Shown here: piece after piece, positions 1 to 15,661 of the stretch
Layout: the number at the start of each line of letters is the position of its first letter
How positions within the stretch are numbered: the stretch's first letter is position 1
DNA from: an uncultured Nocardioides sp.
Lineage (GTDB): Bacteria > Actinomycetota > Actinomycetes > Propionibacteriales > Nocardioidaceae
Assembly (NCBI GenBank): GCA_964396585.1
Contig: CAYNFY010000006.1
Span: 223-64,222 of the forward strand
DNA length: 64,000 bases
Direction: 5' to 3'
Made by a program: the position numbers and the translations under genes
Notes under the pieces: model-generated
Database searches by the model: none
What the model was told of the DNA's origin: nothing
The model's input: only the letters and a program-made list of their open reading frames with translations

Positions 1-645
1 CGTGCCTTCCGCGCCTCGAGACGCGGTTTCGCCGCGTACTCCACAACGAGCGTGGTTGCCAGGGCGACCAATACGGGCGTTGCAAGACTGTGCCAGATGA
101 ATTGGTCCACGCGGCCAACGCTGAGGGCTCGCGAGGCCTCCTGTGTGCAATCCTCCCACGGGCCCGGCAAATGACTGCCCCGTACCACCGCGTCTGCCCC
201 TCGGGTTCCACCCAGCCCGGGCCTCACTGGTCGACGCGGAACGCCCAGCGAATCTGATTGGGAAGAGCCCACTGCGCCGCTCCGACGCAGCCTTGAAGCC
301 TTCCTTGGAGCAGCCGTTGACCACGAAGGTGGGGAGGAGATTCACAAGACCACCTGCCCACAGTTCGGTTCGCCCCTCGTCAGACCTGCCCACATACCCC
401 GTCGCCGTTGCACCCCTTGACCTGATGGCTTCCATGTCACCTCACAACCGTCAGGACTGTTGGACATCGCCGGCTGTCTTGAGCCCCGAAGATCCCGCCC
501 GGAATCCCCCTGTCTGAGCCGCCCAAGGCCTCCCAATTCGTCGGCACACATGCGACGAAGGACAGTGACGGATCGCCCCACTTCGGGGTGCTCCTCACGG
601 CATTTTCAGGGGTCCGTTGGTTGCCGACGGACGTCGTTGAGGGCG

Positions 646-3271
646 GTGATCGGCGTGCATGGCGGGGTGAAATTCTACCGCGGAGCCGCCAAGGCTGCCC
701 GGGCCTACGTTGAGCGTGATCGGTCGCGAGCCGACGACTACTACCTGAGTGAAGGCGCCGGCGTCGCCGAGCGGTTCGTCGCGACCCCGACCGGTATCAC
801 AAGGGCCGGCTCGATGGATGGCGACTCCTACGAAAAGTGGGTCGCGGGACTCGACCTCGAGACCGGCCGCAAGAAGGGTCGGGTCCGCGACGACGCGAAG
901 GCGCTGCGGTTCGTGGAGGTCACCGTCAACGGATCGAAGACCTGGTCACTGGCCGCAGCCTTGCACCCCGACGTCTCGGCCGCTCTGAACGAAGCCCAGG
1001 ACAAGGCTGCCGCCGAGATCATCAACTGGTGGGCCCAGCACGCGGCCACTCGGGTCGGGCCGCGGGGACGCCAGGTACGGGTGCCGGTGGAACAGATCGA
1101 GGCCGCAGTGATCCGGCACTACACCTCACGGGCAGGTGACCCGCACCGGCATCTGCATCTCCAGGTCAACGCCCGGGTGTTCGCCGCCGGCGGCTGGCGG
1201 GGCCTGCATTCGGTGGGGGTGCGCGACATGATCGAGGCGATCAATGGCATCGGGCACGCCGCGGTGGCCACCAACCCGGAGTTCCGTGCCGTGTTGGCTG
1301 CGCACGGGTTCACCTTAGATCCCCGAGACTCAAGAGATCGCACAACTGGCCCCGTACGTGGGAGCGTTCAGCGCCCGGACCAGCCAGATCCACCACAACA
1401 TCGACCGATACGAAGCCGAGTGGCGCCGCGAGCACCCCGGCGACGAACCGGGTCCGCGGCTGCGGGAGGTGTGGGACCGGCGGGCATGGGCCGAGGCACG
1501 ACCGGACAAGGTCGTCCCCGCTAACGGCGCTGACCTGATCGCACGGTGGAACGCCGAACTGCGGAACCTGGGCTACCGCGACCCGCGGTCGCCCGTCGCG
1601 CTGGACGCAACGCCAGTCGCGTGGATCGATCGGGACAAGGCTGCCGACTGGGTCATCTCCCAGCTCGGGGCAAAACGGTCGGCGTGGAACGCCGCCGACA
1701 TCCGCGGCAAGGTCGAGGTGTTGTTGGCGCAGTCCAACCTGGTCGCAGTGCCCGCCGCCCGGATCGAGCTGGCCGAGGACATCACCGCCCGCGCCGCCGG
1801 ACGTTGCGCGCGGCTGCTCACGTCGTCGGAGGCTCCGGAACATGTCCGGTGGTTGACGTCTCCACGCGTCCTCGATGTGGACGCGGACCTGATTCAGCGC
1901 CTCGCGCGCCGTGCCACACAGCCCGCTCTGCGGGCCCGGGTGGCCGGGCGAGGTCTGGCCCGGATCGACCAGACCCAAGCAGCCGTCGTCGGCCTCTTGG
2001 CCGGAGACGGGCCACTCGTGGTGGTGGAAGGAGCCGCGGGCGCCGGGAAGACCACCGCCTTGCGGGCGACGCGAGAAGTCCTGGCGTTGCAACGTCACCG
2101 TCTGATGGTGGTGACCCCGACGCTGAAGGCCGCCGAGGTAGCCGCCGCAGAGACCGGTGCGGACGGGCACTCCGCGGCCTGGCTGATCCACCAGCACGGC
2201 TGGAGGTGGGACGCCGACGGGCACTGGACGCGGAAACCAGCGGCGGAGCCGGTGGCGAGTGCACGGTTGGGTCGCGGCGACCTGCTGGTGGTCGACGAGG
2301 CGGGGATGCTCGACCAGGACACAGCCCTCGCCCTACTGACCCTCGCCGACGAGACCGGAGCACGAGTGGCGCTGATGGGCGATCGACATCAGCTCCCTGC
2401 GGTGGGTCGCGGTGGGCTGCTGGACCACGCGGTCGCGTGGGCGCACCTGACCGCGGTCGTGGCCCTGGAGAAGGTGCATCGCTTCGCTGACCCTGACTAC
2501 GCGGCGATCAGCCTGAAGATGCGCACCGGAGACGATCCCGCAACGGTCTTCGAGACGCTGCACCGCCGCGGACAGATCGTGATCCACCCCAGCGAAGTCG
2601 AACGCGAAGCCGCACTTGCAGACGTCGGTGCCACCGGAGTGCTCGTGCTGGCCGACACCCGCGAGCAGGCCGCCAGCCTGAACGCCGCCATCCGCGACCA
2701 CCGACAAGGGAAACCCGAAGCCGAGGCAGTCCTGGTGACCGCCCGCGGTGAACAGATCGGACTCGGCGACCGGGTCGCCACCCGCCACAAAGACGCCGGC
2801 CTCGGCGTGGCCAACCGGCAGACGTGGACCGTCTCCGGAATCGGTGACGACGGGAGCCTCATCCTGCACGGCGGAGGCCGCGATCGGACGGTCCCCGCTC
2901 ACTACGCGGCACGGTTCGTGGAGCTGGTCTACGCCACCACGGTCCACGGAGCTCAAGGTGAAACGGTTGATCGCGCGCACGTAACCATCAGCGAGACCAC
3001 CGGAGCAGCGGCCGCCTACGTCGCGATGACCCGTGGCCGCCACGAGAACGTCGCCCACCTCGTGGCCGAAACCGTGGATGACGCCAAGGCACAGTGGGCA
3101 GCCGTCTTCAACCGTGACCGGGCCGACCTCGGGCCCGCCCACGCCAAGCGGCAGGCCATCGACGCCGTTGACCGGTATGGCAGCCAGCGCCGCCGTGCAG
3201 CGCTGGACGAGTTTCGGCGGCGCCAGACGCCCACGGAGGGTGCTCGCGAGCGCCAAGGACTCGGGTTCTGA
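646..3271 (+). pseudogene. MOBF-family conjugative relaxase fused to a RecD/TraA-like helicase (TrwC/TraA-like), reading frame broken once
   Basis: ORF 460-1524 carries the TrwC-type relaxase motif RHYTSRAGDPHRHLHLQVN. ORF 1358-3271 (other frame) carries Walker A GAAGAGKTT, Walker B LLVVDEAGML and the helicase C-terminal motif TVHGAQGETVD. The frames join as ...AAHGFTLDP|ETQEIAQLAPYVGAF if one C is removed from the CCCC run at 1321-1324. GTG 646 (VIGVHGGVKFYRG) is taken as the start. Confidence 0.8.
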
Positions 3272-3366
3272 TCATGAGGCTTTCGGCGCCCGCGCATCAC
3301 CCGGCTGACGAAACGGAGCTTCCTCGTCACCGTGGCCTGACGACGTGCGTCTCCCCCACATTCGGT

Positions 3367-3584
3367 GTGCGCCCGTCCTGCCGATGGGGTGCGCCCGTCC
3401 TGGCGTCCGAGTTCGCGCGGCGATCTCTCCTTGCCCGATTCAGCGCCAAAACAGGCCGGGGCAAGCCCTCCTCCAAACTTTTTTCAACTTTCGGAGGGGC
3501 GATGCCTCGCAAGCCCCTGACCAGCAGAAACGTCTGCGCCCGTCCTGCGCCCCTCCCAGGACGGGCGATGCCAGGACGGGCGCA
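3367..3584. repeat. Iteron-like array of a 13-14 nt motif (TGCGCCCGTCCTG), three direct and two inverted copies, flanking an AT-rich tract
   Basis: GTGCGCCCGTCCTG at 3367-3380 and 3389-3402 (22-bp phasing). TGCGCCCGTCCTG at 3535-3547. Reverse-complement copies CAGGACGGGCG at 3557-3567 and CAGGACGGGCGCA at 3572-3584. AT-rich tract about 3470-3492. An extra 9-mer GTGCGTTGC occurs at 3590-3598 and 3627-3635. Confidence 0.75.
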
Positions 3585-3677
3585 AATTGGTGCGTTGCCT
3601 GAGGACACTGGAAACCAACGGCATCCGTGCGTTGCACCCGGGTTCCGGATCAGTCCACCACCTGAAGGGGAAATCCA

Positions 3678-3902
3678 ATGACGTTCGCACTCGAAACCGA
3701 CCCTCACCACGAACACGACGAGATGCTCAGCCTCCAGGAGGCGTGCGCCCTCCTCCGCGTTCCCGAGGGAACCCGCCGCTACTGGCACCACCTCGGTTGC
3801 GGCCCCCGCAGCTTCAAGATCGGTCGCCACGTCCGGTATTGGCGAGCAGACGTCGTCCTCTGGCTCGCCGAGCAGGCCAGCCGTCCCCAGAACCATCGCT
3901 GA
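3678..3902 (+). CDS. xis: Excisionase / MerR-AlpA-type helix-turn-helix DNA-binding protein
   Basis: 74 aa, LSLQEACALLRVPEGTRRYWHHLGCGPRSFKIGRHVRYWRADVVLWL is typical of excisionase-family HTH proteins. It lies directly upstream of the integrase. RBS-like GAAGGGGA precedes the ATG. Confidence 0.8.
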   Translation: MTFALETDPHHEHDEMLSLQEACALLRVPEGTRRYWHHLGCGPRSFKIGRHVRYWRADVVLWLAEQASRPQNHR

Positions 3903-3960
3903 ACCTGCCGGCTGTCGGACCCCAGAGAGACGATCGAGAGGCCCAGGAAGGAGCAACACC

Positions 3961-5130
3961 ATGGCGGGAAGCATCGCCAAACGCCCCCACGGCAAGTGGA
4001 GGGGGCGGTACCGCGACGAGTCCGGCAAAAAACACTCGCGGCAATTCGAGCGCAAGATCGATGCCCAACTGTGGCTGGACCAGGTGACCACCACGGTGGT
4101 GACCGGAACCTACGCCGACCCGCAGGCGGGTCGCATCACGTTCGCCGCGTTCTTCGCTGACTGGTCGGCACGTCAGGTGTGGGCGCCGGGAACCGTCCGG
4201 GCGATGGCGTTGGCGGCCAAGTCAACCCCGTTCGTCGAGAGACCGATCAAGCAGGTGCGTCGATCCGACATCGAGCTCTGGATCAAGCAGATGCACGACT
4301 CGGGACTCGCCCCGGGCACGATCAAGACCCGCTACGTCAACGTCAGATCGGTGTTCCGAGCGGCAGTGAAGGACCGAGTGATCGGCACCGACCCCACCGA
4401 CGCCATCCGCCTCCCCCGAGGCCGACGAGCTGACGTCGCGATGTCGATCCCCACCCCCGAGGAGGTCGGCCGGCTGATGGCCGTGGCCGACGAACGCTTC
4501 CGAGCGTTCATCGCACTGTGCGCGTTCGCTGGTCTGCGGCTGGGCGAGGCCTCCGGGATGCAGCTCGGGGACGTCAACTTCCTGCGCAAGACACTCTTCG
4601 TCTCCCGTCAGGTCCAGCGTGGCGTGGCCGGAGCCGTTCTGCTCCGCGCACCCAAGTACGGATCTGAGCGGGTCGTCTACCTGGCCGACAGCCTGGTGAA
4701 TCTCCTTGCGGAGCACGTCACCCGCAACGGCACCATCGGTAAGGAGCAATGGCTGTTCACGGGCGACGGCGACAACCGGCCCCACCAGAACACCGTGGGC
4801 TACCGGTGGCGCAAGGCCCTCCGAGACGCCGGCCTCGGCCCAGTCAAGCTCCACGATCTGCGCCACTTCTACGCCTCCGGCCTCATCGCCGCCGGCTGCG
4901 ACGTCGTGACCGTCCAGCGCTCCCTGGGCCAGGCCAAGGCGACCACCACCCTCAACACCTACGCCCATCTCTGGCCGACCGCCGAGGACCGCACCAGAAA
5001 GGCTGCGGAGTCGATCATCGAGGCCGCGCTGGGCACCGTTACCGAGTCCGGGCGGGAAGCACACGAAGGAACCTGGCCACAGCGGGCCGGACGACGGTCC
5101 TGCAAGCAAGTCTCTAGCAGTCCCCTATGA
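3961..5130 (+). CDS. int: Tyrosine recombinase / phage-type integrase
   Basis: 389 aa. N-terminal SAM-like arm, GLRLGEA (catalytic Arg box I), HDLRHFYAS (box II HxxR) and LNTYAHLW (catalytic Tyr). Confidence 0.93.
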   Translation: MAGSIAKRPHGKWRGRYRDESGKKHSRQFERKIDAQLWLDQVTTTVVTGTYADPQAGRITFAAFFADWSARQVWAPGTVRAMALAAKSTPFVERPIKQVRRSDIELWIKQMHDSGLAPGTIKTRYVNVRSVFRAAVKDRVIGTDPTDAIRLPRGRRADVAMSIPTPEEVGRLMAVADERFRAFIALCAFAGLRLGEASGMQLGDVNFLRKTLFVSRQVQRGVAGAVLLRAPKYGSERVVYLADSLVNLLAEHVTRNGTIGKEQWLFTGDGDNRPHQNTVGYRWRKALRDAGLGPVKLHDLRHFYASGLIAAGCDVVTVQRSLGQAKATTTLNTYAHLWPTAEDRTRKAAESIIEAALGTVTESGREAHEGTWPQRAGRRSCKQVSSSPL

Positions 5131-5346
5131 CGCGGGCGCGCCATTCTGCACGGGCCCTACGCAGCCACCGCCTCATTCTCGATCAGCCTGAACTGATCGC
5201 AATCCGAAGCTGCGCCAGGGTCTCGGCGATGGTCGGTCGGTAGCCAGCTCCCCGTGCGCATATGGGCCATCGTCCCTACGAAGGGCCGGGGCGTCGATAG
5301 GCTTCGAGGCGAAATCAGCGAACCATTCGTCCTTGAAAGGACCACC

Positions 5347-7440
5347 GTGCACCTTGGGAAACTGAGACTCCGGAACTTCCGTTCCTGCGAGGACACCACG
5401 CTTGAGTTGAATCCAGCGCTGACCGTTCTTGTTGGGGAGAACGCATCTGGCAAGAGTTCGCTGATCGATGCGATGCGCCTGTGCACAGGGCCGGCGAGTG
5501 GCCGCCAGAGTGCTTGGTTCGACGCCAACCGCGATCTCACCCGAGACGTCCCCCTTGGACATGCCGTCGAGATCGAAGCAAGATACTGCGGCTTGAGCGA
5601 CACCGAGTCAGCAATCTATCTCGCACAGATCGTTGACGCGCACGGTGAACTTGTCTATTGCGCATCCTTTGCCACCGACCCTCGCGTATCTCGCCGCAAT
5701 GTCCTGACCTGGACGGTGGGCGATGTCCGAGTCGAAGACGCCGAGCCGGCCAACCGCCGCCGCATCAGCCATGTCTATCTACCGCCGCTGCGGGACGCTG
5801 TTCGGGACATCGACGGTGGTGAAGGCAACCAGTTACACGACGTCATCCGGATCCTGCTCAACGGCGACCAAGCCCTGCACGACGCATTCGTAGAAACCGC
5901 CAACTCTGCGCTACAGACGATCGCTGAACACCCAGTCGCGAAGGACACACAAGCGACGATTCAGCAATACTTCGGGCAGACCACTCCCCCGAACCGTGAG
6001 CATCTGCTTGAGGTGAACCGCCGCCAAGTGGAACTGCGGCGAATCGCGCGGCTACTTCACCTTCAACTCGCGGAGGCTGGAGTCCCCATCGGGGACATCG
6101 CCACGACAGGGCTCGGCTACGCAAACCTTCTCTACATAGCCATGGTCGTGCTCGAACTCGTGAAAGCTCGCGACAGCGACTTGACGCTGCTCCTCGTCGA
6201 GGAGCCCGAAGCTCACTTGCACCCCCAACTCCAGTTGGTGCTGCTGGAGTTTCTCCGGGATCAAGCCGAAAACAGCGGCTCCGGCAACAGCGACCTGACC
6301 CCAACAGGTCGGGTTCAAGTGATCGTGACCAGCCACTCTCCCAACTTGGCAAGCGCGGTATCCATCAAGAACATCGTCGCCCTCGCGCGAACCTCCGTTT
6401 CTGGATCGCCCGGCGAGGCAATCACTGCTGCGCTCGACCAAGCCCCGTTCGAATCCCAGCGCATGAGCCCCCTCGCCCCCGGGCCTGCTCCGGACACAAG
6501 CAACGTCGTGGGCTGGCGCACTCAAACCACAGCGTTATCGTCCCTCGGGCTCTCCGAGGAGGTCATGCGCAAACTTGACCGATACTTAAGCGTGACTAGA
6601 GCAGGGTTGTTGTTCGCTCGTAACGTGATCCTTGTGGAGGGAACCGCAGAGATGGTGCTCGTCCCAGCGCTTGCCAAGCTTCACCTCGCTCCGGAAACTC
6701 CCGACTCAGCCGATTTGGCTCTCGCGTCGGCGCGCAAGCGCATGTTTTACAGCGCGAGTCTCATTAGCGTCGAAGGCGTCGACTTCGAACCGTTTCTTCA
6801 TCTGTTGCTGGCTGGATCCCATCCACGTGTTGACCAGGTTGTGGTGATCACAGATGGCGACAACGGCGCTGGGGAAGCCCGGCGAACAGCCTACGAAAAC
6901 GCATTCCCGGACGCAGTCTCCTCCGGGCGACTCCAAGTGTCCGTCGGGTCTACAACCCTTGAGGCAGAGTTGTTTTCCGAAGCCGTTAACGAGGAGCTCT
7001 TGAGGGCCGCGTTTCTGGTGCTTCACCCGAGGTCCACTGACAATTGGGAGAAGGTTTCGAAAGCCGCCCACGGGACGGACCGAGAGGAGCGAGCCCTCGT
7101 CTTTGCTGAGGCGATCCGCAAGAAAAAGCGAAAGAATACGCCACAAGCGGAGGTCAGCGACGAGGAAGGCGCACTTGCCGGCGGGACGACAGGAACCATT
7201 GAGAAAGGCCGACCAGAGGCCGAAGCTGAAAATCCCCGTCTCGATATCTCCAAGGGCGACTTCGCACACCTCGTTGCTGAAGCGATCATCGCCCCCACGC
7301 GCCAGCAAGAATTCGTCATCCCCGACTACATTAGGAATGCAATCGATGCGATCGTAAGAGACGCAGGAACTCGTCGGAACGTAGGCATAGTCGCCGCATC
7401 CAAGGTGCCCGAATCCCAACCCGAAAGCCACCAGCCATGA
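5347..7440 (+). CDS. gajA: OLD-family ATP-dependent nuclease (ABC-type ATPase + Toprim), GajA-like
   Basis: Walker A VGENASGKSS, Walker B/D-loop LLLVEEPEAHLHPQ, H-loop VTSHSP, then Toprim ILVEGTAEMVL ... VVVITDGDNG. GTG 5347 (VHLGKLRLRNFRS) with GAAAGG 6-11 nt upstream is preferred over the ORF-track start 5254. The stop overlaps the next start (ATGA at 7437-7440). Confidence 0.85.
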   Translation: MHLGKLRLRNFRSCEDTTLELNPALTVLVGENASGKSSLIDAMRLCTGPASGRQSAWFDANRDLTRDVPLGHAVEIEARYCGLSDTESAIYLAQIVDAHGELVYCASFATDPRVSRRNVLTWTVGDVRVEDAEPANRRRISHVYLPPLRDAVRDIDGGEGNQLHDVIRILLNGDQALHDAFVETANSALQTIAEHPVAKDTQATIQQYFGQTTPPNREHLLEVNRRQVELRRIARLLHLQLAEAGVPIGDIATTGLGYANLLYIAMVVLELVKARDSDLTLLLVEEPEAHLHPQLQLVLLEFLRDQAENSGSGNSDLTPTGRVQVIVTSHSPNLASAVSIKNIVALARTSVSGSPGEAITAALDQAPFESQRMSPLAPGPAPDTSNVVGWRTQTTALSSLGLSEEVMRKLDRYLSVTRAGLLFARNVILVEGTAEMVLVPALAKLHLAPETPDSADLALASARKRMFYSASLISVEGVDFEPFLHLLLAGSHPRVDQVVVITDGDNGAGEARRTAYENAFPDAVSSGRLQVSVGSTTLEAELFSEAVNEELLRAAFLVLHPRSTDNWEKVSKAAHGTDREERALVFAEAIRKKKRKNTPQAEVSDEEGALAGGTTGTIEKGRPEAEAENPRLDISKGDFAHLVAEAIIAPTRQQEFVIPDYIRNAIDAIVRDAGTRRNVGIVAASKVPESQPESHQP

Positions 7441-9215
7441 CATCAGCCGCAGCAAGCGGTCCACCGCTGAGCATGGAGCAGCACAATGCCGTCCGCCCCG
7501 AGATCCGCCATATCGAGGCAGGGCCAGGCGCCGGCAAGACGAAGACCATGGTCGCGAGGTTCCGAGCAGAGTCTGGACCTGACGGAGGTGTAGCGCTCCT
7601 GTCTTTCACCAACGCAGCCGTCAACGTCGCACGCAGCCGATGCCTCGACGATCCAGGACTTCTTGACAGCCCCAACTTCGTTGGAACCTTCGACAGCTTC
7701 TTTCACCGCTATGCCGTGACCCCTGCGATGCTAAGAACCACAGGGACGTCCCCCCGCTACAAGATTTCTTGGGACGACCTGCCCGACCATCTTCGCATCG
7801 TACGCCAAGGTTCGGGCTCGGGCCTTCGGCTTTCCCTTTGGACACTGCGATCCGGGAATTCGTACTACCTCGACGAGTCACGCCTCAACCACGATGAACG
7901 TAGGTATTGGAACAATCTGGATCTCGCCGAGTGGACGCGTGAGCAGATTCGAGCAAAGGGCACCGCCCGAATCTCCGCGCTTCATCAGCGCCGGGTCTAC
8001 GACACGCTAGAGGCTAGGAGGCTAGCGATTCGAGCGCTCGTCAATCCGAATCTCGGGCTGCTCTCGACGCTGGCCAGGCGATTCAAGGAAGTGATCGTTG
8101 ATGAGTTTCAAGACTGCGACAACCTCGAGCACCAGCTTCTCGATCTGATGTCGGGGGCCGGCATTCGCACAATCACGGTTGCCGATCCCGACCAAGCGAT
8201 TTATGAGTTCCGCCAGACCACCGACAATACCTATCGACAATATGTAAGCAAACTCGACTCGACTCGGATCGCTTACCTCAGCACTTGCTACCGATCAACA
8301 CCCGCGATCTGTGGACTAGTGACAAGCCTTCGACAGGCTTCGGCAGCGAGTATCGAATCGCACGAACCCGCCGACACCCAGTGCCCACCAGTTCATGTCA
8401 TCGTTGGGTCGGGCGCAGCAGCCGGTGCAGCCGCAGCCCGGGTTCTAGCCAGCCACGACATCCCGCCCGCTGGCACCCGCTTCCTTGCCCATAAGAAGAA
8501 GGACGCTCGAGCGCTTGCCAGAACACGAACCAACGCCATCAAAGGCGAAGCAGCGATACCGAAGGTCTTGGCAGCAATTGCCGAGGTACGAAGCGGCGCG
8601 GACTCGCGCGCCCGCCACAGCTCTATCACGCGAATCGAGAAGGTCATTCTCGGCCTCTTCGCGTGGACTGATGATGAAGCCCCCGAAACCCGGCAAGGAC
8701 AGTTGGAGGAACTCGGACTGACGAACACGGAGTTGCGAATTCTCGCAAGCAAGATCGTGTCAGCCGCTCCAGGTTGGACTAGCCGCGAGGCGTGCGGAAC
8801 GTCGATCCGCGCCATCGTTGAAGACGGCGCAAGGACAGCTAACCTGCCTTTAGTTAAGAACCTCGGTCGAAGACTCGCCAAGCCCAAGACGGAGGTATGG
8901 AGTGCGTGGGCCTCGCGAAGTGAGGACGTCCTCGTCTCGGAGATTTCCGCAATCAAATGGACACACGTCCACGCAGTCAAGGGCGACGAGTTCGATGCGG
9001 TCATCTACGCCCTCCCATCCCAAACAGTTGACGGCAGACACGTGCTAGACGATTGGGAACAAGGTGTAGACACCGAAGCTCGGCGAGTCCTCTACGTGGG
9101 TGTGAGCCGAGCACAGCGTGTCGTCGTCTTGGTCGTGCCACCCGGGCGGAAGGATCAGCTGACGGCCATCCTCGAGCGCGACGACGTCCGCTTCGCGATC
9201 CAGTTCGCTTCGTAG
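7437..9215 (+). CDS. gajB: UvrD/PcrA-like SF1 helicase, GajB-like
   Basis: GPGAGKTKT (motif I), VIVDEFQDCDN (motif II), LSTCYRS, HAVKGDEFDAVIY, LYVGVSRAQRVVVLV (motif VI). Translationally coupled to the OLD nuclease gene. Confidence 0.85.
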   Translation: MTSAAASGPPLSMEQHNAVRPEIRHIEAGPGAGKTKTMVARFRAESGPDGGVALLSFTNAAVNVARSRCLDDPGLLDSPNFVGTFDSFFHRYAVTPAMLRTTGTSPRYKISWDDLPDHLRIVRQGSGSGLRLSLWTLRSGNSYYLDESRLNHDERRYWNNLDLAEWTREQIRAKGTARISALHQRRVYDTLEARRLAIRALVNPNLGLLSTLARRFKEVIVDEFQDCDNLEHQLLDLMSGAGIRTITVADPDQAIYEFRQTTDNTYRQYVSKLDSTRIAYLSTCYRSTPAICGLVTSLRQASAASIESHEPADTQCPPVHVIVGSGAAAGAAAARVLASHDIPPAGTRFLAHKKKDARALARTRTNAIKGEAAIPKVLAAIAEVRSGADSRARHSSITRIEKVILGLFAWTDDEAPETRQGQLEELGLTNTELRILASKIVSAAPGWTSREACGTSIRAIVEDGARTANLPLVKNLGRRLAKPKTEVWSAWASRSEDVLVSEISAIKWTHVHAVKGDEFDAVIYALPSQTVDGRHVLDDWEQGVDTEARRVLYVGVSRAQRVVVLVVPPGRKDQLTAILERDDVRFAIQFAS

Positions 9216-9261
9216 ACCTTGATCTTGACTTCCACAGTCACGTGGGAAGCTTCGGGGCATG

Positions 9262-9283
9262 GCAGGCAACGCAAGTTGCCTGC
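9262..9283 (+). terminator. Stem-loop downstream of the helicase gene (9-bp stem, GCAA tetraloop)
   Basis: GCAGGCAAC-GCAA-GTTGCCTGC, 47 nt after the stop. There is no clear U-tract, so terminator function is uncertain. Confidence 0.4.
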
Positions 9284-9501
9284 TTGAGAGCGCGCAAGTT
9301 CTTGAGTTTAGTGTCCGCTGCCGGCGATCGCTGACTGCTGACCCGCCGCATTCCGCCCGCCTTGACTCGGTTGCGTTGCTGTCCGCATCGGACGCGAACG
9401 CTCGCATTCGGGGAGTGTCTAATAGCCGCGTAGCGTGCGCTCGCAGCCGTGTCCATCCGCAGCGATTGCATAGCTGGCTCTTGCAGCTGAGCGGTTGACG
9501 G

Positions 9502-9876
9502 TCAGTCGAACTGCAGGGTCACGTCAGGGCTGGAGATCGAGGCGTGTCCCCAATCGCCTTCAAGCTCCCAGCGGTCCTCGGCCGGATTGAACGCGAACGC
9601 GTCGACATTGCCCAAGTCGCCCGAGCCGGAGGCATCGGTGGCAGGCCGCCGTCCGCTGAGGCGTACAACGATGGGGCCTCGAGCTCGAACGCTCAGCCAG
9701 GCAAGGCGGTAGCAATGCCGGTCGCCCGGATTCGGTGGTTGATAGAGCGGATGGTCGGGCGTGAGTACCGTCTCCAGGCGGAGCGACAGCGCGACGGACG
9801 TCGGAGCAACCTCGAGCACCCAGGAGTCTTCTAGGTAGACCCCCGCGAGATCGGAGAACGCCTCGTAGTACTCCAT
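9502..9876 (-). CDS. Hypothetical protein (124 aa), no recognisable domain
   Basis: Open frame with ATG at 9876 (MEYYEAFSDLAGVYLEDSWVLEV...). The upstream part of ORF 9502-10005 is Arg-rich and looks non-coding. Co-directional with higBA. Confidence 0.5.
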   Translation of the reverse strand: MEYYEAFSDLAGVYLEDSWVLEVAPTSVALSLRLETVLTPDHPLYQPPNPGDRHCYRLAWLSVRARGPIVVRLSGRRPATDASGSGDLGNVDAFAFNPAEDRWELEGDWGHASISSPDVTLQFD

Positions 9877-9904
9877 GGACCGAAGTATGCCGGGGCTTGT
9901 CCGA

Positions 9905-10438
9905 TCATTCCGTTGAGTGGCCCCAGTTCGGGCCGACCGCAGCGCCAAACAACGAGCATGCACCGATCGTCCAGGCCGAGCCCGAGGATCCACGAGGCGC
10001 CTCAACCCGCGGGCACCGCTGAAATTCTTGCGGACTATTTGCGGACTGTGGGCATCCGCACCCCATCTGACCTACGGAAACGCGCAGATTCAGACGTTGA
10101 AGCGGAACTGGCGTGAGCACATCGGCGACAAGCCGACCACGTTCGACCCCAACCCAGTCACCCTAGCGATGATGCGACCGCGACGGCTCGAGGAAATCGT
10201 CCCTTCGCATCCTCACCATCGACGGCTCGCCCTCGGCAGTGCTCCGGATCAGGGTGCTCCTGCCTGACCCGGCGTACCCGGACACCCCAATGACGATCGG
10301 CCGCTCAAGTTCCCCGCACCTTCGCCGGATGAGCGCCTTCAGCTGCTCTACGCTCGACAGCGCCAGTTGGCCCCGTGCGTCATGCGACTTGAAAGGGCGT
10401 GATCTCGGCGATCTTGTCCCGCAGGGCACGGCGCTCAA
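9905..10438 (-). pseudogene. Degenerate P-loop nucleoside/nucleotide-kinase-like gene with an in-frame TAG
   Basis: ERPIVIGVSGYAGSGRSTL (Walker A) ... MRRDDFLEP, then TAG at 10163-10165. ORF 9905-10120 continues in the same frame (10438-10120 = 318 = 3 x 106). The only possible starts (TTG 10438, GTG 10429) lie inside higA. Confidence 0.4.
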
Positions 10439-10700
10439 GCCGCAGTTCGTAGTTCGACTGCAGGTTCATCCACATCTCCTCGGATGTCCCGAAGTAGCGC
10501 GCCAAGCGGATCGCCGTGTCCGCCGTGATGCCACGTTTGCCGTGCACGATCTCGTTGATCCGCCGCGGCGGAACTCCGATCGACACAGCCAGCTTGTTCT
10601 GAGTGATCCCGAAGCCCTCGATGAAGTCCTCCATCAGGATCTCTCCTGGGTGGATCGGCTCGATCAGATCAGCCTCAGTGATAGTCGACGAGTTCGACAT
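10380..10700 (-). CDS. higA: HigA-family antitoxin (XRE-type HTH)
   Basis: IEPIHPGEILMEDFIEGFGITQNKLAVSIGVPPRRINEIVHGKRGITADTAIRLARYFGTS is the classic HigA/VapI signature. It lies downstream of the toxin gene. Confidence 0.85.
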   Translation of the reverse strand: MSNSSTITEADLIEPIHPGEILMEDFIEGFGITQNKLAVSIGVPPRRINEIVHGKRGITADTAIRLARYFGTSEEMWMNLQSNYELRLERRALRDKIAEITPFQVA

Positions 10701-10956
10701 TGTCTACACCTCCATCTCTCCAGACGAAGCAGAGACGCCACTGCGCGTTCACACGAATGCTGTGCTCACCACGACGGTCGCCCACCAATCGCTCCAGCCG
10801 GTTCCCGGGAGGAATCCGGAGATCCTCCACGACCTTGGCCGCATGGATGAGTTCGAGCTTCCGCAGGGTCGCCCGTTGCACCGTTCGATCGACGCCCTTG
10901 ACGTACTGCTCATGCCAGATGCGTTCGGTGTCCTTGCTCCCGAACGATCTGATCAC
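10675..10956 (-). CDS. higB: HigB-family toxin (RelE/ParE superfamily, plasmid maintenance system killer)
   Basis: MIRSFGSKDTERIWHEQYVKG...RLERLVGDRRGEHSIRVNAQWRLCFVWRDGGVDNVELVDYH is the typical HigB pattern. The toxin-first order is typical of hig loci. Confidence 0.85.
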   Translation of the reverse strand: MIRSFGSKDTERIWHEQYVKGVDRTVQRATLRKLELIHAAKVVEDLRIPPGNRLERLVGDRRGEHSIRVNAQWRLCFVWRDGGVDNVELVDYH

Positions 10957-10989
10957 ATGACCAGCGTATAACGCGAAGCGTCATTAACG

Positions 10990-12063
10990 CTAGACGTTAA
11001 ATCGGAACTCGACCACGTCGCCGTCGACCATGACGTAGTCCTTGCCCTCCATGCGCACCTTGCCAGCCTCCTTGGCCTTGGCCATCGAACCCGCGACTAC
11101 CAGGTCGTCGAAGGAGACGATCTCGGCCTTGATGAAGCCCTTCTGAAAGTCGGTGTGGATGACTCCGGCGGCCTCGGGGGCGGTGGCGCCCTTCTTGATC
11201 GTCCAGGCCCGGGCCTCCTTGGGCCCGGCGGTCAGGTAGGTCTGCAGACCGAGGGTGTCGAACCCGACCCGGGCCAGCACCTCCAGGCCGGGCTCGGTGA
11301 CGCCCGCCTCGGCCAGGAACTCGGCTGCTTCCTCATCGTCCAGCTCGATCAGCTCGGACTCGAACTTGGCGTCCAGGAAGATCGCTTCGGCCGGGGCGAC
11401 GAGTCCGCTCATCTTGGCCTTGAGGTCCTCGTCCTGCAGTTCCTCGGCGTCGCAGTTGAAGACGTAGATGAACGGCTTGGCGGTCAGCAGCGACAACTCA
11501 CGCAGCAGGTCCCGGTCGATCGAGGTCGCGATGATCGGGGTGCCGGCCTCAAGCGCCTCCTGGGCGGCCTTGGCCGCCTCCAGATTGGCGACGAGCTCCT
11601 TGTTCTTGCGGGACTCCTTCTCCAACCGGAGTACCGACTTCTCGACGGTCTCCAGATCGGCCAGGATCAATTCTGTCTGGATCGTGGAGATGTCGCTGTC
11701 GGGATTGACCTCACCGTCCACATGGGTCACATCCTCATCACGGAACACCCGGGTCACCTGACAGATCGCGGAGGACTCCCGGATATGCGAGAGGAACTTG
11801 TTGCCTAATCCCTCGCCCTGGCTGGCGCCACGCACGATGCCGGCGATGTCCACGAACTCGACGGTCGCCGGAAGCTGCTTCTCCGAACCGAAGATCTCGG
11901 CCAGCTTGCCCAACCGCGCGTCAGGGACCCCGACGACACCGACATTGGGTTCGATCGTCGCGAACGGGTAGTTCGCCGCGAGGACGTCGTTCTTGGTCAG
12001 AGCGTTAAAGAGCGTCGACTTGCCTGCATTGGGGAGTCCGACGATGCCGATGGTGAGTGCCAC
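10990..12063 (-). CDS. ychF: Redox-regulated ribosome-binding ATPase YchF
   Basis: GIVGLPNAGKSTLFNALT, a TGS-like C-terminus and the ending VVEFRFNV. GTG 12063 (VALTIGIVG) is the likely start. Confidence 0.95.
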   Translation of the reverse strand: MALTIGIVGLPNAGKSTLFNALTKNDVLAANYPFATIEPNVGVVGVPDARLGKLAEIFGSEKQLPATVEFVDIAGIVRGASQGEGLGNKFLSHIRESSAICQVTRVFRDEDVTHVDGEVNPDSDISTIQTELILADLETVEKSVLRLEKESRKNKELVANLEAAKAAQEALEAGTPIIATSIDRDLLRELSLLTAKPFIYVFNCDAEELQDEDLKAKMSGLVAPAEAIFLDAKFESELIELDDEEAAEFLAEAGVTEPGLEVLARVGFDTLGLQTYLTAGPKEARAWTIKKGATAPEAAGVIHTDFQKGFIKAEIVSFDDLVVAGSMAKAKEAGKVRMEGKDYVMVDGDVVEFRFNV

Positions 12064-12115
12064 GAGCGTCGAGTCTACGGCGGGAGCGACCTCGCCCCTC
12101 AATCCCGGCCCCCGC

Positions 12116-12718
12116 TCAGCGCAGGTCGCGACGCATCACCAGACGCGGCATCTTGCTGGCCACCGCGTCGGTCACACCAACGACCTCGAATCCCACCGCC
12201 TCGAACATCCCTCGAGTGCCCACGAACGCCATGGTCAGATCCATCCGCCCCTCCGGATCCACCGGGTAGGCCTCGACCACAGGAACTCCCTGACTGCGTG
12301 CATACTCGACCGCCCCGCTCAGCAGGTGGCGGGTCACGCCTTGGCGCCGATGTCCACCACGCACCACCACACAGATCACGCTCCAGACCGGCACCTCGTC
12401 CACCGGTCGGATCAGTTTCGACCGGACCAGCCGAGTGTTGTGGGCACGCGGGCCGATGCTGCACCAACCAACCGGAACCCCGTCGCGGTAGGTGACGACT
12501 CCCTGGGGCTCGCGAGCGGTCAGGGCTCGCATCGCATGCTCCCGCTCCGGTCCCAGATCGCTGATCTCACCGGCCGTGCAGCGGTGCGACAGACACCAGC
12601 AATGAGTGGCGCGCCGATTCGGGTTCACCACGTCAGCGAAGTCCTCGAACCGCTCGGGAGTCACCGGATGTGTCGCCCAGGTCTCGCCAGATTCCTGGAA
12701 TTTGCCTCGGTCGTCCAT
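12116..12718 (-). CDS. GNAT-family N-acetyltransferase
   Basis: VVVRGGHRRQGVTRHLLSGAVEYARSQG (acetyl-CoA binding Q/RxxGxG/A motif). ATG 12718 (MDDRGKF). Confidence 0.8.
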   Translation of the reverse strand: MDDRGKFQESGETWATHPVTPERFEDFADVVNPNRRATHCWCLSHRCTAGEISDLGPEREHAMRALTAREPQGVVTYRDGVPVGWCSIGPRAHNTRLVRSKLIRPVDEVPVWSVICVVVRGGHRRQGVTRHLLSGAVEYARSQGVPVVEAYPVDPEGRMDLTMAFVGTRGMFEAVGFEVVGVTDAVASKMPRLVMRRDLR

Positions 12719-12770
12719 GACCTCATCGAAACAGACGGCGCCCCAACGGGCTCGCCTCACCCAACCTGGG

Positions 12771-13811
12771 TCAGCCGCCGAGGGCGGGCAGCACCTCGCG
12801 GGAGAAGGCATCCAGGAAGGCCGCCTGGTTGGTCCCGACGTTGTGTACGAAGACCCGGTCATAGCCCAGGGACAGGTAGCGGTTGATCTCGGCCAGGTGA
12901 GCGGAGGGATCCGCGCTGATCACCAGCCGGCCGGCCAGGTCCTCGGGTCGCACCAGCTTGGCGATCTGCTCGATCAGTTGCGGGGAGCGCAGGTCGCCAC
13001 GGGCGAAGCGCATGGCACCGATCGGGTAGCAGGCCAATGCTTGAGCCAGGGCGTCCTCGTCGGTGCCTGCCCAGCTCAGGTTCAGATGGACCCAGGCGGG
13101 CTTCGATGCCGGATCCCGCCCGGCCTCCGCTACCCCGACCCGGAAGCGGTCGATCAGTACCGCCGCCTGATCAACCGAGGCTCCTACCGCCAACAACCCG
13201 TCGGCGGTGCGCCCCGCGCGGCGGGCGGTGACCGGTCCCCCGGTGGCCACCAGTACCCGCGGCGCCCGCTGTGGAAGGCTCCACAAACGGGTCGTCTCGC
13301 AGGTGAAATGCTCCCCGGAGTAGCGCAGTTCCCGCCCGGCGAGCGACTCCTTGAAGAGCCGCCGGATCAGCTCGACGGCCTCGAAGAGCCGGTTGATCCG
13401 CTCGGGCGCCTCAGGCCAGTAGCCGCCGGTCACGTGCTCGTGGAGCGCCTCCCCGGCGCTCAGCGTCAGCCAGTGTCGTCCGGGGTGGAGGGCCGCCAGG
13501 GTGGCGCTCGCCTGGGCGATCGAGACCGGATGCATCCGAGCCCCCGCCACCGCCATACCGGGGCCGAAGTCCGACCTGGTCCGCTCGGCGATCGCCCCCA
13601 GCAGTGGCCAGACCTGTGGCGCCTGACCCAACGAGGGGAGCCAGGGCTGGAACAGATCCGCCGCCATGGTGCCGACGAATCCCGCCTGCTCGGCCAGCAC
13701 GGTCAGGTCGACCACCTCGCGCGGGGTGACTCGGTCGACCGGCGCGACATATCCGACCTGGTGGTGTGGCACGGAGTCATCGTAGAACGAAGGTGCGATT
13801 CGATTGTTCAC
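12771..13811 (-). CDS. LLM-class (luciferase-like) flavin/F420-dependent oxidoreductase
   Basis: 346 aa. The pattern LFQPW...GPGMAV...MHPVSIAQASATLAALHPGRHWLTLSAGEALHEHVTGGYWP is typical of the F420-dependent LLM family. The GTG start overlaps the ABC ATPase stop (GTGA). Confidence 0.8.
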   Translation of the reverse strand: MNNRIAPSFYDDSVPHHQVGYVAPVDRVTPREVVDLTVLAEQAGFVGTMAADLFQPWLPSLGQAPQVWPLLGAIAERTRSDFGPGMAVAGARMHPVSIAQASATLAALHPGRHWLTLSAGEALHEHVTGGYWPEAPERINRLFEAVELIRRLFKESLAGRELRYSGEHFTCETTRLWSLPQRAPRVLVATGGPVTARRAGRTADGLLAVGASVDQAAVLIDRFRVGVAEAGRDPASKPAWVHLNLSWAGTDEDALAQALACYPIGAMRFARGDLRSPQLIEQIAKLVRPEDLAGRLVISADPSAHLAEINRYLSLGYDRVFVHNVGTNQAAFLDAFSREVLPALGG

Positions 13812-14584
13812 GAGAAGGCAATCAACGGCCGTCCGGTGCGGGGATGGGTCAGTACATCGGCCACTACCCCGTAGGTGCGCGAGATCACCTCGGGGGTCAG
13901 CACCTCGTCGATGCCACCCACCGCACGCACCTCGCCCCCGGTCAAGATCACCACCTGGTCGCAGAACTGAGCGGCCAGGTTGAGGTCGTGCAGCGCGGCC
14001 ACCACCGTCATCCCCGATGCGGCCAGGTCGCGCATCAGACCCAGGGTGCTCAATTGGGCCTTCACGTCGAGGTGATTGGTGGGCTCGTCCAGCATCAGCA
14101 GTCGCGGCTGCTGGGCCAGGGCCCGGGCCAGGTGTACCCGCTGCCGTTCACCACCCGACAGCGTCCCCAGCTGGCGACCGGCCAATTCCTCGGCACCGGC
14201 CGCCTTGATCGCCTCGGCCACCGCATCCACGTCGCCGGGCGCGTCGAATCCCCACAACGAGCGGTGCGGGGTACGTCCCAGGTCGACGGCTTGGCGCACG
14301 GTGAGCGCGAACTCGCTCTGGGAGTCCTGCTCGACCAGGGCCAGTACCCTGGCCCGATCCCGGCGACCGAGTGCCAACAGGTCGCTCTCCCCCAGCCGTA
14401 CCGAACCGTCCGCGATGGGCTGTACCCCGGCCATCGCCCGTAGCAGGGTGGACTTCCCGGCACCATTGGGCCCGACCAGCGCGATCACCCGACCGGTCGG
14501 CACCTCGAAGGTGGCACCGGGCACGATCACCGTGCCGGCCACCTGGACCCGGATCCCGCTGACCTGAAGCAGTTCGGTGCTCAT
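13808..14584 (-). CDS. ABC transporter ATP-binding protein (iron-chelate FecE/FepC type)
   Basis: [43 protein letters not shown]. Confidence 0.9.
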   Translation of the reverse strand: MSTELLQVSGIRVQVAGTVIVPGATFEVPTGRVIALVGPNGAGKSTLLRAMAGVQPIADGSVRLGESDLLALGRRDRARVLALVEQDSQSEFALTVRQAVDLGRTPHRSLWGFDAPGDVDAVAEAIKAAGAEELAGRQLGTLSGGERQRVHLARALAQQPRLLMLDEPTNHLDVKAQLSTLGLMRDLAASGMTVVAALHDLNLAAQFCDQVVILTGGEVRAVGGIDEVLTPEVISRTYGVVADVLTHPRTGRPLIAFS

Positions 14585-15654: not shown

Positions 15655-15661
15655 CGATGTC

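What the first reader, a model, noticed from the sequence alone, without database searches (positions are those of the whole stretch)
5254..9283. Gabija-like (class 2 OLD nuclease + UvrD helicase) defence operon directly downstream of an ICE integrase, with atypical inserts
Seen:
- Two translationally coupled genes (ATGA overlap at 7437-7440).
- Gene 1 has an ABC-type ATPase (GENASGKS, LLLVEEPEAHLHPQ, VTSHSP) followed by a Toprim domain (ILVEGTAE, ITDGDNG).
- Gene 2 is an SF1 UvrD-type helicase (GPGAGKT, VIVDEFQD, VKGDEFD, VGVSRA).

Established: this pairing defines class 2 OLD nucleases and the Gabija anti-phage system.

Unusual points:
1. It sits immediately after the xis-int module rather than inside a recognisable cargo region.
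2. A hand-counted line (6541-6600) is 33/60 GC, against 45/60 for a backbone line, which suggests foreign origin.
3. Gene 1 carries a Pro/Ser-rich linker (SPLAPGPAPDTSN) between the ATPase and Toprim domains. It also has a ~50-aa Lys/Glu-rich insert (AIRKKKRKNTPQAEVSDEEG...EKGRPEAEAENPR) after Toprim.
4. Both proteins (about 697 and 592 aa) are longer than the Bacillus prototypes as I recall them (about 580 and 490 aa).

This may be a divergent actinobacterial Gabija subtype.
Basis: partly seen in the sequence, partly recalled or inferred. Interest (0 to 1): 0.7.

Follow-up and report, generated by a model that had tools for sequence, protein, structure and literature searches.

The report
Ordinary Gabija defence operon, ICE cargo
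This is a standard two-gene Gabija anti-phage system (GajA nuclease plus GajB helicase) carried as swappable cargo beside the integrase of a mobile element in a high-GC actinobacterium, and its "atypical inserts" are disordered loops at positions that vary throughout the family, so it is ordinary.

Summary
gajA (5347-7440, 697 aa) and gajB (7437-9215, 592 aa) overlap by ATGA, and every quoted motif is present.

Both proteins match existing PADLOC Gabija models over their full length (GajA E 5.5e-178, GajB E 3.8e-117). The AlphaFold model of GajA hits Bacillus cereus GajA best. A GajB-like gene follows the GajA homologue in 70 of 80 genome loci from many phyla.

The claim of an atypical, divergent subtype fails:
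- More than 3,800 homologues exist, many of them actinobacterial.
- GajB-like ORFs next to GajA homologues have a median length of 586 aa, so 592 aa is typical.
- The two GajA inserts and the C-terminal tail are predicted disordered (pLDDT below 50) and unconserved. They sit at sites that vary in length across the family (linker 5-89 aa).

The position after the integrase is explained. Related elements (integrase 77-81% identical) share the relaxase-xis-int backbone but carry different cargo between int and a conserved attachment arm. That arm ends in a 20-bp copy of the ychF 3' end. Gabija fills this cargo slot here.

Verdict: a new member of a known kind, of low interest. Function and mechanism are inferred from studied Gabija systems and were not tested.

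The parts
5347..7440 (+). gajA: class 2 OLD-family nuclease, 697 aa (ABC-type ATPase with a helical insertion, then a Toprim domain and a C-terminal helical region)
   Evidence: PADLOC GajA PDLC00073, E 5.5e-178, aa 1-671 against profile 1-588/589. Pfam AAA_15, AAA_21 and OLD-like_TOPRIM. A profile of relatives hits the class 2 OLD C-terminal regions 6njv and 6nk8. The best Foldseek hit is B. cereus GajA 8x5i_B, E 3.4e-16.
5434..5457 (+). GajA Walker A, GENASGKS (aa 30-37)
   Evidence: G30, E31, N32, G35 and K36 are invariant in 112 sequences.
6187..6342 (+). GajA Walker B and D-loop, LLLVEEPEAHLHPQ (aa 281-294), through the H-loop VTSHSP (aa 327-332)
   Evidence: E285, E286, P287, H290 and H330 are invariant.
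6391..6513 (+). Variable linker 1 (aa 349-389, Pro/Ser-rich) between the ATPase and Toprim domains
   Evidence: pLDDT below 50 for aa 354-387. The query has 41 aa between anchors R348 and W390, against a family median of 10. 43 of 111 relatives have 25 aa or more, the maximum is 89, and there is no sequence conservation.
6610..6867 (+). GajA Toprim catalytic core: E431 (ILVEGTAE), G477 (VEGVDF), D503 and D505 (TDGD)
   Evidence: PF20469 covers aa 422-505. These four residues are invariant in 112 sequences. They correspond to E379, G409, D432 and D434 named for B. cereus GajA in PMC10781630.
7120..7239 (+). Variable insert 2 (aa 592-631, Lys-rich then Glu-rich) in the post-Toprim helical region
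   Evidence: pLDDT below 50 for aa 596-626. The query has 49 aa between F586 and K636, against a median of 18. Only P0001 is longer, P0002-P0005 and P0007 have 31-42 aa, and the sequences are unrelated.
7363..7437 (+). GajA C-terminal tail (aa 673-697)
   Evidence: pLDDT below 50. Tail length ranges from 7 to 49 aa among relatives.
7437..7440 (+). ATGA overlap of the gajA stop and the gajB start
   Evidence: Sequence CCAGCCATGACATCA. The same 4-bp overlap occurs in L001, L006, L007, L012, L013, L079 and L081-L083.
7437..9215 (+). gajB: SF1 UvrD-type helicase, 592 aa
   Evidence: PADLOC GajB PDLC00136, E 3.8e-117, aa 13-587 against profile 8-567/570. Pfam UvrD-helicase and UvrD_C_2. PDB hits to UvrD at 2.4e-13 and to B. 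cereus GajB at 4.5e-5. Motifs I, II, V and VI are located.
5020..10017 (.). Variable cargo slot of the integrative element. It holds gajAB and one orphan ORF (9502-9876, minus strand).
   Evidence: Nucleotide homology to 19 related elements stops at about 5018, in the C-terminal tail of int. It resumes at 10017-10109 in L089 and L091. Cargo differs in each relative. GC is 58-63% here against 66-71% in the flanks.
3961..5130 (+). Tyrosine integrase of the element
   Evidence: PF00589, E 5.3e-22. 19 metagenome loci hold integrases 77-81% identical.
3678..3902 (+). Excisionase-type HTH_17 gene
   Evidence: PF12728, E 3e-6. Conserved at 70-84% aa identity in 12 related loci.
460..3271 (+). TrwC-type relaxase-helicase, split over two reading frames
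   Evidence: The TrwC profile is split between ORF 460-1524 and ORF 1358-3271, and the second ORF also carries AAA_30. The frame change lies near 1325-1358.
10020..10112 (.). Right attachment arm (two TTGCGGACT repeats) plus a ~20-bp core identical to the last codons of ychF
   Evidence: Alignments A3-A5. The arm and core are conserved in L089, L091, L098 and L105 next to different cargo.

Best explanation
The locus is a functional-looking Gabija anti-phage system.

Components:
- GajA is a class 2 OLD nuclease. It has an ABC-type ATPase that binds nucleotide and a Toprim two-metal nuclease.
- GajB is an SF1A UvrD-like helicase, translationally coupled to GajA.

Mechanism, inferred by analogy with the B. 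cereus and P. aeruginosa systems:
- GajA tetramers dock GajB to form a 4:4 complex.
- GajA DNA binding and cleavage is held off by cellular NTPs.
- GajB senses DNA ends and hydrolyses (d)ATP/(d)GTP, which reinforces activation.
- Invading linear DNA is nicked or cleaved.

Context:
- The cassette sits in the variable slot between the integrase gene and the right attachment site of an integrative, relaxase-bearing element.
- That element targets the 3' end of ychF.
- The cassette was acquired horizontally.

Inserts: the extra length of GajA comes from disordered surface loops at positions that vary freely in the family. They do not define a new subtype.
For: Shown here:
- Full-length matches to curated Gabija profiles and the expected Pfam domains.
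- A profile of relatives matches the class 2 OLD C-terminal region of Xcc and Bp OLD over the whole region.
- The structure model is closest to B. cereus GajA (8x5i, 8sm3), with E down to 3e-16 and a target TM-score of about 0.53.
- The ATP-site and Toprim residues are invariant in 112 homologues and intact here.
- A GajB-like gene lies immediately downstream in 70 of 80 loci from many phyla, often with the same 4-bp overlap.
- The nearest relatives (64-73% identity) are the same two-gene cassette in unrelated contexts.
- Homologues occur on 89 plasmids, 33 of them conjugative.
- GC3 is 0.66-0.68, against 0.81-0.88 in the neighbours.
- The cargo slot is defined by comparison with 19 related elements.
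- The inserts are disordered, unconserved and at length-variable sites.

Taken from the literature:
- The 4:4 complex and active-site residues (PMC10781630).
- NTP-inhibited nicking and end sensing by GajB (abstracts of PMC8136825 and bioRxiv 10.1101/2023.05.02.539174).
- Targeting of DNA ends that lack RecBCD (PMC12407980).
Against: - No experiment exists on this protein or on any actinobacterial member that I found.
- Sequence identity to the studied B. cereus GajA is only about 13% in the structural alignment, and phmmer does not find it at E < 0.001. Details such as DNA sequence specificity, stoichiometry and nucleotide regulation may differ.
- The dimerisation region (aa 155-256) is modelled with low confidence.
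- No sigma-70-like promoter or terminator was detected, although the scan does not cover actinobacterial promoters.
- The element's relaxase is frameshifted, so the carrier may be decaying.
Confidence: 0.9

Rival explanations
1. A functionally distinct actinobacterial Gabija subtype. In this reading the Pro/Ser-rich linker and the Lys/Glu-rich insert are functional modules, for example altering the GajA-GajB interface, tethering DNA, or shielding the complex from Gad1-like phage inhibitors.
For: - The inserts are shared in position by the five or six nearest relatives.
- Site 3 is long in only a few sequences.
- The inserts flank the Toprim domain, a surface that Gad1 contacts in B. cereus (PMC10781630).
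- KKKRK is a basic patch that could touch DNA (inference).
Against: - There is no sequence conservation, even among relatives at 64-73% identity.
- pLDDT is below 50 throughout the inserts.
- Insert length ranges from 5 to 89 aa at site 1, and other relatives carry similar low-complexity inserts at a third site.
- The reported GajA-GajB interface (K94/R97 loop in the N-terminal ATPase half) is far away in the sequence.
Confidence: 0.06
2. The pair serves the mobile element itself rather than the host's phage defence. It would act as a nuclease-helicase used in competition with other plasmids or ICEs, or in processing of element DNA.
For: - It lies inside the element's boundaries.
- Homologues are frequent on conjugative plasmids.
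- Gabija is reported to act on plasmids that carry end-binding proteins (PMC12407980).
Against: - It is not part of the conserved backbone. Related elements carry unrelated cargo at the same place.
- The nearest relatives of the cassette are not next to integrases or relaxases.
- Its composition differs from the backbone.
Confidence: 0.04

Closest known systems
Gabija of Bacillus cereus VD045 (GajA 578 aa, GajB 494 aa; PDB 8SM3, 8U7I, 8X5I, 8JQB)
   Same: - Two-gene gajA-gajB operon.
- ABC ATPase plus Toprim nuclease, with the invariant Glu, Gly and DxD residues.
- A UvrD-like helicase partner.
- It is the best structural match to the GajA model.
   Different: - Identity is only about 12-14% in the structural alignment, and there is no significant full-length phmmer hit.
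- GajA is about 120 aa longer, through a longer core (relatives have a median of 639 aa) plus disordered loops.
- GajB is about 100 aa longer, which is the norm outside Bacillus.
Class 2 OLD nucleases BpOLD and XccOLD (PDB 6NK8, 6NJV; two-metal Toprim mechanism)
   Same: - The whole C-terminal region aligns (profile positions 378-611 against chain residues 5-219, E 2.4e-12).
- Both are paired with a UvrD-type helicase gene, which defines the class (PMC10781630).
   Different: - Only the C-terminal regions of those proteins are solved.
- The window protein carries the extra 40-aa disordered insert inside the post-Toprim helical region.
Gabija of Pseudomonas aeruginosa PA14 (PMC12407980)
   Same: The same system type. 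It gives the current model for self versus non-self discrimination, in which DNA ends devoid of RecBCD are targeted.
   Different: No sequence comparison was made here. Whether an actinobacterial end-processing machine plays the RecBCD role is unknown.
Other OLD or ABC-ATPase defence effectors: PARIS AriA, Septu PtuA, retron Eco8 OLD, class 1 OLD (TsOLD 6P74)
   Same: They share the ABC ATPase fold and, for OLD proteins, the Toprim fold.
   Different: - Scores are far lower: AriA E 9e-32 over the ATPase only, against GajA at 5.5e-178.
- The partner gene here is a UvrD helicase, not AriB/DUF4435, an HNH PtuB or a reverse transcriptase.
- No Rfam family reaches its gathering score in 1-16000.
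Variable cargo or defence hotspots of mobile elements (P2/P4 hotspots, PMC9122126; genomic-island hotspots, PMC12629846)
   Same: A conserved mobility backbone with a slot, here next to the integrase and attachment site, where unrelated cargo alternates. The cargo includes defence systems: Gabija here, a Tmn/YobI-like NTPase in L094 and a PDC-M36A-like protein in L090.
   Different: - This is an actinobacterial element with a TrwC relaxase that targets the 3' end of ychF.
- Several relatives carry non-defence cargo, such as MMPL/ABC transporters or a hydrolase with a PucR regulator.

Membership tests
Gabija (GajA/GajB) | GajA matches curated GajA profiles over its full length | tested here: met
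   PDLC00073, E 5.5e-178, aa 1-671 against 1-588/589. 24 of the 25 best PADLOC hits are GajA models.
Gabija (GajA/GajB) | N-terminal ABC-type ATPase with a conserved ATP-binding site | tested here: met
   Pfam AAA_15, AAA_21 and AAA_23. Walker A (G30-S37), Walker B (E285, E286) and the H-loop (H330) are invariant in 112 sequences.
Gabija (GajA/GajB) | C-terminal Toprim with the invariant Glu, the invariant Gly and the DxD motif (E379, G409, D432/D434 in B. cereus) | tested here: met
   PF20469 covers aa 422-505. E431, G477, D503 and D505 are invariant. The feature definition comes from PMC10781630.
Gabija (GajA/GajB) | Helical dimerisation insertion that splits the ATPase domain | tested here: inconclusive
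   The model has helices at aa 148-276 between ATPase strands, but pLDDT there is 33-56.
Gabija (GajA/GajB) | Adjacent, co-oriented SF1 UvrD-like helicase (GajB) with Walker A and a DExQD box | tested here: met
   PDLC00136, E 3.8e-117. PF00580 and PF13538. GPGAGKT and VDEFQD are present. The genes overlap by 4 bp.
Gabija (GajA/GajB) | GajA fold resembles the solved GajA structure | tested here: met
   Foldseek hits 8x5i_B at E 3.4e-16 and 8sm3_A at E 2e-14, target TM-score 0.53, aligned over about 655-665 columns. The TM-score is moderate because of flexible domains and disordered loops.
Gabija (GajA/GajB) | 4:4 GajA-GajB supramolecular complex | not testable with these tools
   Only monomer prediction is available, and the two chains together exceed the 1200-aa limit.
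Gabija (GajA/GajB) | Protection against phage; NTP-inhibited DNA nicking | not testable with these tools
   This needs an experiment.
Class 2 OLD nucleases | OLD nuclease genetically linked to a UvrD/PcrA/Rep-like helicase, with a class 2 type C-terminal region | tested here: met
   The profile of relatives hits 6njv (E 2.4e-12) and 6nk8 (E 8.1e-11) over the whole C-terminal region. The helicase is adjacent in 70 of 80 loci.
PARIS, Septu or retron-associated OLD/ABC effectors | Partner is AriB (DUF4435), a PtuB HNH nuclease, or a reverse transcriptase with msr/msd RNA | tested here: not met
   The partner is a UvrD helicase. The neighbouring ORFs have no PADLOC hits of that kind, and there is no Rfam match.
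Integrative conjugative or mobilisable element (carrier) | Site-specific integrase, excisionase, relaxase and an attachment site that duplicates the target | tested here: met
   Integrase, xis and TrwC relaxase are present. The arm plus a 20-bp ychF-3'-end core lies at 10020-10112, and a second core lies at the real ychF end, 10990-11010. The relaxase is frameshifted.
Integrative conjugative or mobilisable element (carrier) | Own conjugation machinery (T4SS or FtsK-like translocase), which separates an ICE from an IME | not testable with these tools
   The element extends beyond the left edge of the window. Its left end and most of its genes are not in the 64 kb.

The most novel reading that the evidence does not exclude
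The length-variable disordered loops around the GajA Toprim domain (three internal sites plus the C-terminal tail, 5-90 aa, unrelated sequences even between close relatives) could be an arms-race surface. They might sterically hinder Gad1-type phage inhibitors that wrap around GajA, or tune DNA access. If so, this actinobacterial clade would show a previously undescribed way in which Gabija escapes anti-defence proteins.
Probability: 0.08. Interest if true: 0.45.

Novelty: new member of a known kind. Interest (0 to 1): 0.14.

Why it matters
It matters little in itself. Gabija is reported in more than 15% of sequenced genomes (PMC10781630), and this subfamily is already in PADLOC.

The modest value lies in three points:
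- It is a clean example of Gabija as cargo in the int-to-att slot of an actinobacterial integrative element that targets ychF.
- Related elements hold uncharacterised large genes in the same slot, which could be mined for new defence systems.
- Mapping the hypervariable disordered loops shows which parts of GajA are dispensable for the conserved core.

Tried and rejected
- Exact-sequence look-ups of P0003, the window's GajB and a re-started YchF found nothing. The chromosome could only be matched to three short Logan contigs through an ABC-ATPase gene.
- I looked for repeats flanking the Gabija cassette in 4900-11100 and found only chance-level short matches.
- There are no tRNA genes in the window, so the element is not tRNA-targeted.
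- No Rfam family matches in 1-16000, and there are no sigma-70-like promoters or convincing terminators around the operon.
- PADLOC on six neighbouring ORFs found no further defence gene. The orphan ORF 9502-9876 has no Pfam hit and no homologue in any fetched locus, so it is not a conserved third Gabija gene.
- The phage collection holds only one weak partial hit, so the cassette is not of obvious phage origin.
- A literature search for ychF as an integration site returned nothing relevant.
- The two large unknown cargo proteins of L089 and L091 are not related to each other.
- Class 1 OLD, PARIS, Septu and retron Eco8 were considered and rejected on partner gene and score.

Full report
**1. 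What is in the sequence**

Two co-oriented ORFs occupy 5254-7440 and 7437-9215. They share ATGA at 7437-7440.

The first ORF opens at 5254, but its real start is the GTG at 5347:
- A GAAAGGA ribosome-binding site lies 7 nt upstream.
- The closest homologues start at the same MHLG... position.

Every quoted motif was found at the expected place. The hand-counted line 6541-6600 is indeed 33/60 G+C.

**2. Identity**

- PADLOC profiles name both proteins over their full length. GajA matches PDLC00073 at E 5.5e-178 (aa 1-671 against 1-588/589). GajB matches PDLC00136 at E 3.8e-117 (aa 13-587 against 8-567/570).
- Pfam gives AAA_15, AAA_21 and OLD-like_TOPRIM for GajA, and UvrD-helicase and UvrD_C_2 for GajB. 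NCBIfam has no equivalog for either.
- Against solved structures, the single GajA sequence finds the class 1 OLD 6p74 and the class 2 OLD C-terminal regions 6njv and 6nk8.
- A profile of 18 relatives aligns the whole C-terminal region to 6njv at E 2.4e-12, and only weakly touches B. cereus GajA.
- An AlphaFold2 model (mean pLDDT 73, pTM 0.70) finds B. cereus GajA as its best structural match. 8x5i_B scores E 3.4e-16 and 8sm3_A E 2e-14, with a target TM-score of 0.53. TsOLD and the retron Eco8 OLD nuclease follow.
- GajB finds UvrD at 2.4e-13 and B. cereus GajB at 4.5e-5.

Antine et al. (PMC10781630) name four residues as the GajA Toprim active site: an invariant Glu, an invariant Gly and DxD. 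Here they are E431, G477 and D503/D505. These residues, and the Walker A, Walker B and H-loop residues, are invariant in a 112-sequence alignment.

**3. Is the gene pair conserved?**

- 3,833 homologues score E <= 1e-20. The best is 73% identical, and many named ones are actinobacterial: Serinicoccus, Gordonia, Aeromicrobium, Rhodococcus, Mycobacterium and Arthrobacter.
- In 80 loci from one-genome-per-species contigs of many phyla, 70 have a GajB-like gene right after the GajA homologue on the same strand. Many show the same 4-bp overlap.
- Three of the five nearest relatives could be looked up. Each shows the same two-gene cassette in a different surrounding, with no integrase nearby: SLFN/AlbA_2 and RNase_T genes, HicB and a DEAD helicase, or unknown genes.
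- Homologues also lie on 89 plasmids, 33 of them conjugative.

This is a mobile, self-contained, widely distributed cassette, which is the usual picture for Gabija.

**4. The "atypical" points**

*(a) Length of GajB.* GajB-like ORFs next to GajA homologues have a median of 586 aa (IQR 575-609; 65 of 72 are at least 560 aa). The 592 aa here is normal, and the 494-aa Bacillus protein is the short one.

*(b) Length of GajA.* The relatives have a median of 639 aa and range from 606 to 748 aa. The window protein, at 697 aa, is in the upper tail.

*(c) The inserts.* The extra residues lie at the sites below.

| Site | Residues | Length here | Family median | Range or note |
|---|---|---|---|---|
| ATPase-Toprim linker | 349-389 | 41 aa between anchors | 10 | 5-89; 43 of 111 relatives have 25 aa or more |
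| Post-Toprim region | 592-631 | 49 aa between anchors | 18 | only P0001 is longer |
| C-terminal tail | 673-697 | 32 aa after A665 | 15 | 7-49 |

- Other relatives carry similar inserts at a third internal site, up to 90 aa.
- In all cases the inserted sequences are low-complexity and unrelated, even between proteins 64-73% identical.
- The model gives pLDDT below 50 for 354-387, 596-626 and 673-697.

I read them as disordered surface loops at permissive positions, not as new domains. The published GajA-GajB interface involves the K94/R97 loop in the N-terminal ATPase half. That is far from both inserts in the sequence. Proximity in three dimensions was not tested.

*(d) Composition.* gajA and gajB have GC3 of 0.68 and 0.66, against 0.81-0.88 for the relaxase, xis, int and ychF. 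This agrees with foreign origin.

**5. Why it sits right after the integrase**

Upstream lie a TrwC-type relaxase-helicase (460-3271), an HTH_17 excisionase-type gene (3678-3902) and a tyrosine integrase (3961-5130). The relaxase is split by a frameshift near 1325-1358.

A metagenome scan found 19 loci with integrases 77-81% identical. Comparison with these loci shows:
- The backbone (window 542-3145 and 3717-5018) is conserved at 70-81% nucleotide identity.
- Homology stops at about 5018, in the variable C-terminal tail of the integrase.
- In L089 and L091 homology resumes at window 10017-10109 and then runs straight into ychF.

The 90-bp segment at 10017-10109 holds two TTGCGGACT repeats and ends in a ~20-bp core. 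The core is the reverse complement of the last ychF codons (…FRFNV-stop). The same arm and core occur in L098 and L105, and core copies occur at the left ends of L090 and L104.

The interval between int and this arm differs in every element:

| Locus | Cargo in the slot |
|---|---|
| Window | Gabija plus an orphan ORF |
| L089 | a 1312-aa unknown protein |
| L091 | four unknown genes |
| L094 | a Tmn/YobI-like NTPase |
| L090 | a PDC-M36A-like protein |
| L093 | MMPL and ABC transporters |
| L098 | a hydrolase and a PucR regulator |

Gabija therefore occupies the variable cargo slot of an integrative element family that targets the 3' end of ychF. Only the right part of the element lies in the window, so I cannot say whether it is a full ICE or a mobilisable element.

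**6. Mechanism**

Shown here: family membership, intact catalytic residues, operon structure, conservation of the pair, and location on a mobile element.

Inferred from studied systems:
- A GajA tetramer with GajB docked forms a 4:4 complex (PMC10781630).
- GajA is a nicking endonuclease whose DNA binding is inhibited by NTPs. GajB senses DNA termini and hydrolyses (d)ATP/(d)GTP (abstracts of PMC8136825 and bioRxiv 10.1101/2023.05.02.539174).
- Gabija prefers linear DNA ends that are not occupied by RecBCD (PMC12407980).

Nothing here tests these steps for this protein. Identity to the B. cereus proteins is low, so details may differ.

**7. Verdict**

The Gabija call is right. The claim of a divergent subtype with meaningful inserts is not supported. 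This is a new member of a known kind, and interest is low.

The by-products listed under "noticed in passing" are more worth a look than the operon itself, chiefly the ychF-targeting element, its cargo slot and the unknown cargo in related elements.

Noticed in passing
window 10020-10112 and 10990-11010: There are two copies of a ~20-bp core equal to the last codons of ychF. The first follows a conserved arm with two TTGCGGACT repeats and is followed by a decayed ychF-like fragment (to about 10135). The second is the real ychF 3' end. This is the signature of site-specific integration into the ychF 3' end, with two elements in tandem. I found no literature on ychF as a target.
   Followed up: partly
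window 10135-10990: The 0.9-kb segment between the two cores holds a HigB-like toxin (10675-10956, minus strand, PF05015, E 8e-19), a HigA-type HTH_3 antitoxin (10380-10700, minus strand) and a 91-aa P-loop NTPase fragment (10163-10438, minus strand). It has no integrase. It looks like a small integrated remnant that uses the same attachment site. L090 has a HigA homologue (62% aa identity) on the other side of its element's core.
   Followed up: partly
window 460-3271: The TrwC-type relaxase-helicase is split into two overlapping ORFs in different frames, with the frame change near 1325-1358. It is either a pseudogene, meaning an immobilised element, or an assembly error.
   Followed up: partly
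L089:11157-15095 (minus strand); L091:1411-8835; L097:1159-5084: In related elements the slot that holds Gabija here contains large genes with no Pfam or PADLOC match: a 1312-aa protein, a block of four ORFs (355, 1321 and 373 aa on the plus strand, 349 aa on the minus strand) and a 920 + 388 aa pair. Given the neighbours (Gabija, Tmn/YobI-like, PDC-M36A-like), they are candidate unknown defence genes. The two largest are unrelated to each other.
   Followed up: partly
L094:3192-7232; L090:9079-11124: Other cargo in the same slot includes a 1346-aa YobI-like P-loop NTPase (PF20693, E 9e-97; PADLOC Tmn, E 2e-41) and a 681-aa protein that matches the candidate system PDC-M36A (E 7e-18).
   Followed up: no
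window 9502-9876 (minus strand; ORF opens at 10005): An orphan ORF of about 124 aa lies between gajB and the attachment arm. It has no Pfam or PADLOC hit and no homologue in any of the 105 fetched loci.
   Followed up: partly
window 5035-5130: The integrase here is 389 aa, against 372-373 aa in eight relatives. Its last 30 or so residues are unrelated to theirs, so the cargo boundary lies inside the 3' end of the int ORF.
   Followed up: yes
P0061 (764 aa): One homologue carries both OLD/Toprim and UvrD-helicase Pfam domains in a single 764-aa product. It is either a GajA-GajB fusion or a gene-calling artefact across the 4-bp overlap.
   Followed up: no
window 5347-9215: Neither window protein is in the 5.8-billion-protein collection. 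The best GajA hit is 73% identical, and the exact look-up of GajB is empty. A neighbouring chromosomal ABC-ATPase gene (13808-14584) matches only three short Logan metagenome contigs exactly. The source organism therefore seems to be poorly sampled.
   Followed up: partly
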